A stretch of DNA of 64,000 nt from Girardia tigrina. Taxonomy: Eukaryota. Location of the stretch: contig MQRK01180300.1 in the NCBI GenBank assembly GCA_001938485.1, positions 9,983 through 73,982 of the forward strand, written 5' to 3'. The position numbers were made by a program. Of the stretch, positions 20,801 through 23,800 are shown one piece after another. Each line of letters opens with the position of its first letter. Position 1 is the stretch's first letter.

Positions 20801-23800
20801 GCTTGTTACCAAGCATATTGGATGCTCTGTCAATACATACTGCATGACAATTCATCCAGTCAATATCTACTTCCACAAAGAAAGTGTTGACTTTGTCAAA
20901 AATATTAGTGTCTCTGGTTGTGTTGGACAAATCCTTGCACATAAGAAAATCTTCTTCAATGTTACTCTCCCTTATGTAGCACACATAAACCAACAACTGA
21001 GCACAACCGGTAATATCAGTTGCTTCATCCAGTTGTATAGCAAAGGATATATTTTTGCTGACCTTCATGCAGGACAATGTTTGACTTTTGATGAGCAGAG
21101 ATGTCAGTAATTCGACGAGTGATTCTCATTAGAGAGGGGACAGTTGCTATTTTTTTGACCAGCTCATTTCCACACATAATTTCACACAAACATGTAAATA
21201 AAAAAAATAGTAAAGAAAGAATGAGATTAATATGTGTGTAAAGTAATATTAGTAAATATGTAATTTCAAAAGCAAATTTTTTGATTTTAATAAATAAATG
21301 CTTATTTCTGTAAAATATCTTAATTTTATGAAAACCATGTTGTGCATAGAAATATTTTCGCGACCCAATCTGCATTTAAGAAACACTAATATAGTATATA
21401 AAAATATTTGATAAACTAGAAATTTAATAAAAATTGAAAACCCGAAAAAAGATGTCTCTGTTTGGGTTGATTTTCGCGAGTCATCGAGTATTTGGTGTGT
21501 TTCTTATTTGCCGAGTTTTTGTACCTGTATGAATTTGTCTTGTTTTGATTGGTTAGCCAATCAGAGCTACTTTCATTAAAAACATAACTAATCGATGATT
21601 TCATTATATTATTAACATGAATTCTATTATGATTAAATTTTTAATTGTGAATTCTGTTAAATGTGAATTTTTGAAGACTTGAAAAATGATTTTTATTGCT
21701 AATTTATTACTGATCCTGACTATGATTATTTTTGCTGAAATTATTTTCAATGATTTTAAAATTGTTTACAACAATTTAAATATTAGATTTTCATCGATTT
21801 TGAAAATTGTTTGACCGATTGAAATATGCTTTTACACCGAATTAAAATTTGTTTTGACTGATTGAAATTTAAGTTGTGCATTGCTGTAAAATGTTGTGTT
21901 TTACTGGTTACTGGTTAAAGAGACACTTATACGGACCATTGAATTTTGTTAAAAAATAAAACTATTTGAACCTTGATATGCATTCTTTTTAGCAAAAGAG
22001 TTTGATACAAAATTAACCTTAACAAACATCAAAAAGTCTATCAAAAATAGACCAAGCATCACGACCATTGCATCAGTTCTCTAGTGTAACTGAAGGACTG
22101 TCGAAACAATATATATAATCTTTATTTATCCTATTAAGCTTAATCTGTTTATCCATGCGATATAACATGATATTTTACACTTTAGTTTACGAATGCGTTT
22201 ATTACTACCACCTGTTTATTTTACATTCTATGTAATAACTTTCTTTGTCCTCAAATTTCTAAAACAAGTTATATATACTTAAAAAATATGAAGTTGCAGA
22301 TGTCCCCTTTCTATATACAATAATGTGATGTAAAAACTCACAACAATATCATTTTTTAATAATAAATTTATAAATTTATAATAATAAATTTATAATAATA
22401 AATTTATAATAATAAAAAAATTTCAAGTAGAATTTATATCATTTTGACCTTTCTACAGTGCGTTTCATTTAACAACAGCAGGATACGAAATTTTAACCTT
22501 AAAAAATTGGTTGAATATAATTATCCAATGAAATAACAGTTGAAGATCTTTTAACAATAACATTTACTATAGGAATTTAAGTTACACACACTCACACAAG
22601 TATATACACACAAATACACACATATATACATACACACAAACATCAAAACACACAACATTTTAGGATCATTTAACAATTTAAGGCTCTTTTAACAGCAGTA
22701 TCTCAGAAAAGTTAAAAAAAATGAATTATGAATTGGAAACCATTTCTTCGGCGTCAGACAATAATACTGACCCATCAATAGATGTTTCTCATGAAATTCA
22801 TGCTAAAAAGAAACGAAAATAGTAAGATGTTTAAACTTTTTACTTGATTTATTTCCTCATTTTTCAGAGTTTTTAAGAATGACAGAGAGAATTGTATCGG
22901 CGTACAATAAAGGAAAAGATTATATCAACGAAAATTGACAAGTATTGATCGGTTATCGGAAAATCGATCGATAATTATCGATATTCGATTGACGGGATAC
23001 CGAATTTGGAGACGCTCTTCCCGACGCGGTTTAAAATCGTTTATCCAGCGTGTCGATTCGATTATGAATCGACGATGAAATACCGCCGCCGCCGCCTTTA
23101 ATCGATAGTCGCAACAATATAATCGATTTACCGACGCTCTATCAACAGATAATCGACGACAATCAATCGTTCGATAGGATCGATCCGAGAAATCATCGAT
23201 CATCGAGATTAGTAACGACGACGACGAGGACGAATCGATCAGTTCTCCCGCTGCTCCTTCGCCATCGTCGTCGCCGATTGATCGATTGATAATGCTGCTG
23301 TAAATAAATTCCCAGTTACAATCAACGATTGTGGCCCTAATGAGGACTGGTTCACTTTCTCCGGCGTTGCTCCTCTCGAAGACCGCCGTCGCCGATGTCA
23401 TTATAACAATCGGTTGAAAATAAAATGATATTGCAAAAATGAAATTAATCGACAGTACATAAAATTATATTATAAAATTAAATAACATTCAATTTTATAA
23501 TATAACATTATATAAGTCTTTTGCAATATTTTATAACAGTACATTAAAGCAAAATTATGATTGCTTTTACTGTTATTAAATGTGCACATTCTAACATTTT
23601 GCTGTTGTTAAATGAAACGCACTGTATTTGTACTGGTCTATTTTGAGTTAAACATGTTTTTCGAATATACAGCTGAATTTTCATAAGTCTGAAAAGGAAT
23701 AAAACCATCGTTGGCAATAAACCTTTGATACCAACATGATTGTATTTCAATCCATTAAATTAAAGACTGAAATTGATTCTGGGAAATATTACAAAGTTTA

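What the first reader, a model, noticed from the sequence alone, without database searches (positions are those of the whole stretch)
22456..23624. Cargo-carrying (Pack-type) Tc1/mariner-superfamily element with an antisense 158-aa ORF
Seen: perfect 25-bp TIRs, TA TSD, subterminal repeats, a CA-rich leader, and a transposase-like first exon/intron/HTH start. At ~22930 the sequence switches abruptly to ~490 bp of CpG/ATCGAT-rich DNA that is open end to end only on the minus strand. Perfect TIRs suggest recent movement. Established: gene-capturing TIR elements are common in plants (Pack-MULEs) and only sparsely described in animals. Inference: a mobile cassette spreading a captured fragment or novel ORF, able to produce sense fusion and antisense RNAs. 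This is the best candidate for an undescribed system in the window.
Basis: partly seen in the sequence, partly recalled or inferred. Interest (0 to 1): 0.72.

Follow-up and report, generated by a model that had tools for sequence, protein, structure and literature searches.

The report
Defective Tc1-type transposon with foreign core
This is a small cut-and-paste transposon copy without a transposase, whose middle is an odd CpG-rich stretch; the long antisense reading frame there shows no sign of being a gene, so the finding is largely ordinary.

Summary
The anatomy is real. Perfect 25-nt inverted ends (22456-22480 / 23600-23624) are flanked by TA on both sides. A 10-nt motif from inside the end recurs three more times in the left arm. 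There is a CA-rich tract and a short ATG-started open stretch followed by an intron-like 46 nt. The core (about 22930-23410) is GC 45.5% with CpG o/e 2.26. It is open end to end in one minus frame (158 codons).

It is a non-autonomous TA-flanked TIR element of Tc1/mariner type. No tool recognises the "transposase/HTH start".

The ORF does not behave like a gene:
- It has no 3-base periodicity (601 of 1000 shuffles reach it; three coding controls 0-3 of 1000).
- It has no family, fold or language-model recognition.
- Its only relative, in 5.8 and 1.84 billion proteins, changes frame and carries about 70 extra codons.

End-to-end openness occurs in 30 of 5000 shuffles.

Capture from a host locus could not be tested. 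No parental copy lies in the window, and no eukaryotic DNA collection was on hand. TcMariner-type Pack-TIRs are already in print (115 of 370 cases, PMC8277862).

The core's extreme ATCG/CGAT density is the one odd feature left. Interest is low.

The parts
22454..22455 (.). TA, left copy of the putative 2-nt target-site duplication
   Evidence: Read directly; extends the perfect inverted repeat to 27 nt.
22456..22480 (+). Left terminal inverted repeat, 25 nt, starts CAGTGCG
   Evidence: 100% complementary to the right end. These are the only two matches in the window at up to 3 mismatches, and 0 of 100 shuffles reach 2 matches.
22540..22694 (+). Left subterminal zone with three direct copies (22547, 22666, 22685) of a 10-nt motif that also lies inside each TIR. 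These are probable extra binding sites for a transposase (inferred).
   Evidence: All 5 exact matches in the window lie in the element, against 1.53 expected window-wide; aligned; direct-repeat families D3 and D4.
22583..22643 (+). CA-rich microsatellite-like tract ('leader')
   Evidence: Tandem Repeats Finder periods 22 and 12; a sub-threshold mir-297 hit here is a low-complexity artefact.
22721..22938 (+). Possible vestige of the 5' end of the element's own gene. It has an ATG-started 33-codon open stretch (22721-22819), an intron-like 46 nt (22822-22867) and a second short open stretch ending at a stop (to 22938). It is broken: one frame discontinuity between the two stretches, and everything downstream is missing or replaced. 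Its identity as a transposase gene is not shown.
   Evidence: Open stretches; intron-like pattern unique in the window; 0 Pfam families at E<=10; no candidates in the protein set; no alignment to the window's mariner N-termini.
22930..23410 (.). Core: 481 nt of compositionally foreign, CpG- and ATCG/CGAT-rich DNA, judged non-coding
   Evidence: GC 0.455 and CpG o/e 2.26. 34 ATCG/CGAT against a median of 2 per 481-nt tile over 503 tiles; the next non-overlapping tile has 13. ATCGAT: 9 seen against 2.25 expected under a first-order Markov model. No periodicity. No other copy in the window. No match in plasmids or phages.
22925..23401 (-). 158-codon antisense open reading frame (179 codons stop to stop, 22928-23464); judged not a gene
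   Evidence: openness reached by 30 of 5000 shuffles; periodicity reached by 601 of 1000 shuffles; no family; recognition 831, best score 0.76; mean pLDDT 32.2; frame not kept in the only relative.
23411..23599 (.). Right arm, AT-rich (GC 0.215 for 23411-23624). It has two near-palindromes (23456-23514, 23528-23581) and one degenerate inner copy of the TIR motif (within 23556-23590, minus strand).
   Evidence: (I2, I6).
23600..23624 (-). Right terminal inverted repeat, 25 nt
23625..23626 (.). TA, right copy of the putative target-site duplication

Best explanation
The feature is one copy (1,169 bp, 22456-23624) of a non-autonomous cut-and-paste DNA transposon of Tc1/mariner type.

Shown:
- Perfect 25-nt inverted ends with TA on both sides.
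- A motif from inside the ends repeated three more times in the left arm.
- No transposase gene.

Inferred:
- The ends and the repeated motif are the cis sites that a transposase, supplied in trans by an autonomous relative elsewhere in the genome, would bind. The TA pair is the duplication made on insertion.
- The left arm keeps a vestige of the element's own gene start: a short ATG-started stretch plus an intron-like stretch. This could not be verified as transposase.
- The central 481 nt is non-coding DNA foreign to the arms. It most likely replaced the missing gene body as filler during repair of a double-strand break (gap filling with template switching). [quoted passage not shown] Alternatively it was inherited from a non-autonomous lineage that already carried it.

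The 158-codon antisense frame is an accident of a stop-poor, GC-richer stretch, not a gene.
For: Element:
- Perfect inverted ends plus TA.
- All 5 exact copies of the TIR-internal 10-mer lie inside the element, against 1.53 expected in the whole window.
- No transposase domain in any open stretch of the element.
- The TcMariner hallmarks of a TA duplication and TIRs under 100 bp are as stated in PMC8277862 (passage).

Gene vestige: the intron-like pattern is the only one in 128 kb of both strands, and it falls right after the ATG-started stretch.

Foreign core: GC 0.455 and CpG o/e 2.26, against arms at 0.285/0.74 and 0.215/1.21. Its ATCG/CGAT density is the window's extreme.

Non-coding:
- Period-3 power of 0.56 is reached by 601 of 1000 shuffles. 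Controls: ankyrin ORF 0 of 1000, histone-like 1 of 1000, 20592-21125 3 of 1000. This measure is strand-independent, so it also argues against a sense-strand exon.
- Atlas recognition is 831 with best score 0.76, against 2135 and 0.98 for the ankyrin control.
- Mean pLDDT is 32.2.
- The only true relative among 5.8 billion clustered and 1.84 billion representative proteins is P0001. It matches 25 of 27 columns in a different minus frame, then carries about 70 unrelated codons, then matches 67 of 72 columns in the ORF frame.

Gap filling is the reported main route for single-copy Pack-TIRs (PMC8277862, abstract and passages).
Against: - End-to-end openness is uncommon by chance (30 of 5000 shuffles). 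All 20 stop triplets of the minus strand avoid one frame. A young or lineage-specific gene is therefore not excluded.
- The periodicity test has limited power on 474 nt and would be blurred by frameshifts.
- Single-sequence structure prediction is often poor even for real proteins.
- No autonomous partner, sister copy with ends, or parental locus was seen. 'Filler' against 'family's own internal sequence' is therefore a judgement.
- No microhomology analysis was possible without a parent.
- The superfamily call rests on the ends and the TA alone.
- A second sequence related to the core exists (P0001's 1,087-bp contig). Its context is unknown; it could be a sister copy, an allele or the parent.
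Confidence: 0.6

Rival explanations
1. One reading: a Pack-type element that captured a host gene fragment or carries a novel protein-coding ORF on the antisense strand, and spreads it.
For: The frame is open end to end in one frame only, which 30 of 5000 shuffles reach. The core is compositionally unlike the arms. A related sequence exists elsewhere, also called as an ORF on the same strand (P0001).
Against: No codon periodicity on either strand, while three controls show it. Codon-position GC is flat. There are 0 Pfam families, only chance-level PDB matches (E about 0.9 or above), Atlas recognition of 831 and pLDDT of 32.2. P0001 does not keep the frame over the first third and has about 70 extra codons. 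Two further 'hits' of the representative search are tandem-repeat proteins with 15 and 6 summed weak stretches, not relatives. The ORF is not itself among the proteins of the searched set in the length range covered.
Confidence: 0.06
2. There was no capture. The core is the ordinary internal sequence of this transposon family, either of a multi-copy non-autonomous lineage or of the autonomous element's non-coding part. P0001's contig would then be simply a sister copy.
For: A close relative of the core exists on a 1,087-bp contig, about the size of the element. No parental copy lies within the 64-kb window, although 56.9% of reported unique Pack-TIRs lie within 15 kb of their parent (PMC8277862, passage). 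Many non-autonomous Tc1/mariner families have internal sequence unrelated to any transposase (my own knowledge).
Against: The left arm appears to stop in the middle of a gene-like start. This fits a replacement better than an old, stable non-autonomous design. The core's composition (CpG o/e 2.26) is unlike both arms. The context of P0001's contig is unknown.
Confidence: 0.2
3. The core is a working cis-regulatory module: a dense cluster of ATCGAT-type protein-binding sites of promoter or insulator kind, carried by the element.
For: There are 34 ATCG/CGAT in 481 nt, against a median of 2 per tile. ATCGAT occurs 9 times against 2.25 expected from dinucleotide content. One exact TATCGATA is present. 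From memory that is the DRE site of Drosophila housekeeping promoters, and papers holding that word together with DRE/DREF were listed (listing and abstract starts only). A weaker zone of the same motifs and CpG lies at 10800-12000 in non-transposon DNA.
Against: Only 3 of the 9 ATCGAT have A/T on both sides (read). No expression, accessibility or binding data exist here. The organism is unknown. Motif density could come from slippage-like growth of a simple motif. Folding is only mildly better than shuffles (z -2.1).
Confidence: 0.1
4. The core is a later, independent insertion into an older element, with its own target-site duplication.
For: A 7-nt direct repeat lies at both edges of the core, at 22948 and 23409.
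Against: A shared 7-mer between two such 51-nt edges is at chance level: 894 of 5000 shuffles, and 211 of 612 pairs taken elsewhere in the window. There are no inverted ends and no A-tail just inside the repeat (read).
Confidence: 0.03

Closest known systems
Non-autonomous (internally deleted or replaced) Tc1/mariner-superfamily elements
   Same: TA flanks, short perfect inverted ends, repeats of an end-internal motif in the subterminal region, no transposase, size near 1 kb.
   Different: The family itself was not found. The end sequence occurs in no paper of the library and in none of the 185,579 prokaryotic genomes scanned. The middle is an unusually CpG- and ATCG-rich stretch rather than a plain deletion.
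Pack-TIRs of animals, TcMariner-associated (Tan et al. 2021, PMC8277862; abstract and passages read)
   Same: Transposon ends on both sides of internal DNA unrelated to the transposon. It is single-copy as far as the window shows. The proposed origin is gap filling.
   Different: That definition needs a parental copy at 90% identity or more and 80-120% length, not flanked by transposons. None is shown here. The only relative differs by about 70 codons in length. That survey found none in the insect and bird genomes it examined. Its list of cases is in supplements that I could not open.
Pack-MULEs and Pack-TYPE elements of plants; Ssk-FB4 of Drosophila
   Same: The idea of a mobile cassette carrying non-transposon DNA between inverted ends.
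   Different: Those carry recognisable exons or whole genes. They have 9-10-nt duplications and long ends, and for Ssk-FB4 there is protein evidence (PMC8277862). Here nothing in the core is recognisably genic.

Membership tests
Tc1/mariner superfamily | 2-nt TA target-site duplication | tested here: met
   TA at 22454-22455 and 23625-23626. The criterion is as worded in PMC8277862. With one copy only, duplication cannot be told from a pre-existing TA...TA.
Tc1/mariner superfamily | Short terminal inverted repeats (under 100 bp) | tested here: met
   25 nt, 100% complementary.
Tc1/mariner superfamily | DD(E/D) transposase with N-terminal helix-turn-helix, encoded by the element | tested here: not met
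   0 Pfam families at E<=10 in 8 of 9 open stretches, and one chance-level unrelated hit. The copy is therefore non-autonomous. The supposed HTH start is unrecognised.
Tc1/mariner superfamily | An autonomous partner with the same ends that encodes such a transposase | not testable with these tools
   No eukaryotic DNA collection was on hand. There is no further copy of the ends in the window or in the prokaryotic genomes. The window's mariner-type remnants have other ends and no similarity.
Pack-TIR (criteria of PMC8277862) | Transposon termini on both sides of the internal sequence | tested here: met
   Both TIRs plus arms. No family consensus is available to compare with.
Pack-TIR (criteria of PMC8277862) | A parental copy of the internal sequence elsewhere (at least 90% identity, 80-120% length, no transposon beside it) | tested here: inconclusive
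   None in the 64-kb window. One related sequence is known only as protein P0001: 67 of 72 and 25 of 27 columns identical, about 70 extra codons, context unknown. The collection holding its contig was closed.
Pack-TIR (criteria of PMC8277862) | The internal sequence is not transposon sequence | tested here: inconclusive
   No transposon or other family is recognised in it. The autonomous element is unknown, so its own internal sequence cannot be ruled out.
Protein-coding gene (the 158-codon ORF) | Codon-like 3-base periodicity and position-specific composition | tested here: not met
   601 of 1000 shuffles reach the observed power, against 0, 1 and 3 of 1000 for the controls. GC by codon position is 0.47/0.46/0.46.
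Protein-coding gene (the 158-codon ORF) | Relatives that keep the reading frame | tested here: not met
   There is one relative only. It has a frame change and an insert of about 70 codons.
Protein-coding gene (the 158-codon ORF) | Recognisable family or confident fold | tested here: not met
   Pfam 0 families, only chance-level PDB matches (E about 0.9 or above), Atlas 0.76 with recognition 831, pLDDT 32.2 and pTM 0.27 from a single sequence.
Nested insertion with its own target-site duplication | A direct repeat at both edges of the core beyond chance | tested here: not met
   The 7-mer is shared at chance level (894 of 5000 shuffles; 211 of 612 window pairs).

The most novel reading that the evidence does not exclude
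A Tc1-type non-autonomous element has picked up, and is spreading, a portable cis-regulatory module rather than a gene. The module is a 481-nt block with the densest ATCGAT/CGAT motif cluster of the window (34 sites) and CpG o/e 2.26. At least one close relative lies elsewhere (P0001's contig). This would be a Pack-type element of an invertebrate whose cargo is promoter- or insulator-like DNA.
Probability: 0.1. Interest if true: 0.5.

Novelty: new member of a known kind. Interest (0 to 1): 0.2.

Why it matters
As it stands it matters little. It is one more defective cut-and-paste transposon in a transposon-rich, gene-poor stretch.

It would matter more in either of two cases. The first is that the core proved to be a captured host regulatory block moved around by the element. 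Transposon-borne duplication is documented in animals mainly for vertebrates, and the one survey read here found none in the insect genomes it examined (PMC8277862). The second is that the ORF proved to be translated.

The practical lesson is about method. In AT-rich genomes a GC-richer, stop-poor insert easily gives a 150-codon open frame. Period-3 analysis with in-window controls separates such frames from genes.

Tried and rejected
- Search for sister copies or an autonomous partner: no further copy of the ends or the core in the window. The ends give 0 exact matches in the prokaryotic genome collection. For the ORF, 93 pattern matches there yielded none confirmed.
- The end sequence, in either orientation, is in none of about 8.4 million papers and preprints.
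- Protein searches: the ORF finds only P0001. P0001 as query finds only itself among 556 candidates. The second exon-like stretch, searched against longer proteins, gives no candidate.
- P0002 and P0003 (E 1.3e-15 and 5e-6) were rejected as relatives. They are tandem-repeat proteins matched in 15 and 6 weak stretches at 23-28% identity.
- RNA readings: 0 Rfam families at gathering score in the window. Three sub-threshold miRNA-like hits in the element scored 17-30 bits against cut-offs of 69-117. There are no tRNAs. Fold z-scores are only -2.1 on both strands.
- Bacterial or phage origin of the core: no match in plasmids or phages.
- The bacterial promoter/terminator scan is not meaningful here.
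- Own duplication of the core: at chance level.
- An Atlas search of the ankyrin ORF, to get a hint of the organism, gave only generic ankyrin clusters. The organism stays unknown.
- My guess that 20592-21125 is a hAT-type remnant got no support from Pfam or PDB.
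Full report
**What is there**

The window is AT-rich (GC 0.268, CpG o/e 1.08). It carries 1,099 masked N in five stretches, which I left as they are.

- At 22454-22480 and 23600-23626 lies a 27-nt perfect inverted repeat: a 25-nt end starting CAGTGCG plus a TA outside each end. At up to 3 mismatches these two are the only matches in the window, and none of 100 shuffles reaches 2 matches. The element is 1,169 bp (22456-23624).
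- A 10-nt motif inside each end, TCWTTTAACA, recurs exactly at 22547, 22666 and 22685 on the plus strand. These, with the two ends, are all 5 exact matches in the window (1.53 expected, 2 of 100 shuffles reach 5).
- With one mismatch allowed the motif is not enriched window-wide (44 against 46.85 expected). The signal is therefore the clustering of exact copies.
- The right arm has only a degenerate inner copy (alignment A1).
- A CA-rich tract lies at 22583-22643.

**The gene-like start**

- An ATG at 22721 opens 33 codons.
- It is followed by 46 nt, GTAAG...TTTCAG (22822-22867). This is the only match to that pattern on either strand of the window, with 1.05 expected over the whole window. 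Its position right there is unlikely to be chance.
- A second short open stretch runs to a stop at 22938.
- The two stretches are out of register across the intron-like stretch, which is one frame discontinuity. Everything that a transposase gene would have downstream is absent.
- I searched the stretches one by one and left the joined form out.
- Pfam finds 0 families at E<=10 in 8 of the 9 open stretches scanned. The ninth, in the core, has a chance-level hit to an unrelated family (15.7 bits against a cut-off of 27).
- The second exon-like stretch has no candidate among longer proteins of the 5.8-billion set and no alignment to the two mariner-type N-termini of this window.
- So 'a vestige of the element's own gene' is plausible, but 'transposase/HTH' is not shown.

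**The core**

- From about 22930 to 23410 the GC is 0.455 and CpG o/e 2.26. The arms are 0.285/0.74 and 0.215/1.21.
- The rise is gradual on the left and sharp on the right.
- ATCG/CGAT occurs 34 times in 481 nt. The median of 503 tiles is 2, and the best tile that does not overlap the core has 13.
- ATCGAT occurs 9 times, against 0.13 expected from base content and 2.25 from dinucleotide content.
- There is no other copy of the core in the window.
- The core has no match in plasmids or phages, and the ORF has no confirmed relative in the prokaryotic genomes.

**The ORF**

- The minus frame is open for 158 codons from ATG, or 179 stop to stop. The other five frames have 4 to 11 stops.
- End-to-end openness in some frame occurs in 30 of 5000 dinucleotide shuffles of the core.
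- Period-3 power is 0.56, and 601 of 1000 shuffles reach it. The controls are the ankyrin ORF (0 of 1000), a histone-fold fragment of only 276 nt (1 of 1000) and the open stretch 20592-21125 (3 of 1000). Two non-coding controls behave like the core (282 and 828 of 1000).
- This measure does not depend on strand, so it also speaks against a sense-strand exon.
- GC is 0.47/0.46/0.46 at the three codon positions, against 0.41/0.30/0.29 in the ankyrin ORF.
- There is no Pfam family and only chance-level PDB matches (E about 0.9 or above).
- Atlas recognition is 831 with best score 0.76. The ankyrin control gives 2135 and 0.98.
- Single-sequence AlphaFold gives mean pLDDT 32.2 and pTM 0.27, which is weak evidence by itself.

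**The only relative**

- Among 51 candidates in the word-indexed set, and in a full HMMER pass over 1.84 billion representatives, one true relative appears: P0001. It is 175 residues, from a 1,087-bp contig, with the source given as jgi.
- Two further rows are tandem-repeat proteins matched in 15 and 6 weak stretches, and I discard them.
- P0001 as query finds only itself among 556 candidates.
- Mapped back on the window, its first 27 residues match 25 of 27 in a different minus frame. About 70 residues then have no counterpart (7 of 36 columns identical in the ORF frame before the shared part). The last 72 columns match 67 of 72 in the ORF frame, with one one-codon gap.
- So a close DNA relative of the core exists elsewhere, but the 158-codon frame is not kept as a unit.
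- Whether that contig is a sister copy, an allele or the parental locus stayed unchecked. The collection that holds it was closed, and I did not trace it.

**Mechanism**

Shown: cis parts of a TA-flanked TIR element, no transposase, and a foreign core that looks non-coding.

Inferred:
- A transposase from an autonomous relative would bind the ends and the repeated inner motif.
- The TA pair is the insertion footprint.
- The gene body was lost and replaced by filler during break repair. PMC8277862 (abstract and passages read) reports 370 Pack-TIRs in 100 animal genomes, 115 of them TcMariner-associated. Single-copy ones arise mostly by transposition-independent gap filling, and 56.9% of the unique ones lie within 15 kb of their parent.
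- Here no parent lies within 22 kb to the left or 40 kb to the right. This weakens a local gap-filling origin and leaves room for the rival that the core is the family's own sequence.
- A 7-nt direct repeat at the core's edges is at chance level, so a later nested insertion is not supported.
- Perfect ends bound the age only loosely. By my estimate, 50 unchanged bases have a probability of about 0.36 at 2% divergence and 0.08 at 5%.

**Comparison and novelty**

- It works like, and by its ends and TA qualifies as, a non-autonomous Tc1/mariner-type element.
- It meets the shape of a Pack-TIR but not the defining test of a parental copy.
- The end sequence is in no paper of the library in either orientation, so the family may be unnamed.
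- The kind is known, so I rate it a new member of a known kind with low interest.
- The one feature without explanation is the extreme ATCG/CGAT density of the core. From memory, ATCGAT-type sites are promoter or insulator motifs in flies; one search gave listings only. That is the basis of the novel reading (probability about 0.1).

**Other points**

Nothing in the window or among the hits was taken for human. Supplements of PMC8277862 could not be opened, so I cannot say whether a similar case is in its list.

Noticed in passing
window 4212-5276 (-): A 355-codon open stretch, partly masked with N. It has a weak match to the C-terminal part of R2 retrotransposon proteins (PDB 9nl3_A E 3.6e-4, 9dou_A E 4.8e-4) and no Pfam family. 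It is probably a non-LTR retrotransposon remnant.
   Followed up: partly
window 30907-31146 (-), 31995-32828 (+), 45587-46568 (+), 55585-56603 (-): Mariner-type transposase remnants (HTH_48 and Transposase_1 hits). Two are largely masked with N. Their N-termini show no similarity to the finding's element.
   Followed up: partly
window 28684-29316 (+): An intact 210-codon ankyrin-repeat ORF (Ank_2 E 2.9e-19) with strong codon periodicity (0 of 1000 shuffles). The Atlas's nearest clusters are generic ankyrin ones, mostly recorded as bacterial, which says nothing firm about origin.
   Followed up: partly
window 8857-9132 (-): A histone-fold fragment (Pfam Histone E 2.2e-9, profile positions 60-122 of 122).
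   Followed up: no
window 20592-21125 (-): A 178-codon open stretch with coding-like periodicity (3 of 1000 shuffles) but no Pfam family and only chance-level PDB matches. By eye it looks like a transposase remnant; this is unverified.
   Followed up: partly
window 34875-35529; 39019-39608; 42649-42888; 59291-63026: Four further pairs of long inverted repeats: 60 and 89 nt nested, 70 nt at 94%, 44 nt at 91%, and 49 nt at 88%. They bound stretches of 655, 590, 240 and 3,736 bp. They are likely other TIR or foldback elements.
   Followed up: no
window 22353-22416: An AT-only tandem repeat (14-nt unit, 3.4 perfect copies at 22370-22416) ends about 40 bp to the left of the element.
   Followed up: no
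window 10800-12000: A second, weaker zone rich in CpG and ATCG/CGAT: up to GC 0.50, CpG o/e up to 2.26 in 200-nt steps, and 13 sites per 481 nt. It lies in DNA with no recognised family. It may be the kind of host sequence the core came from.
   Followed up: no
window 23214-23276: An imperfect hairpin within the core, with 19-nt arms 84% complementary (I14). It underlies a sub-threshold mir-598-like hit (21.1 bits against a cut-off of 69, E 0.23), which is judged chance.
   Followed up: partly
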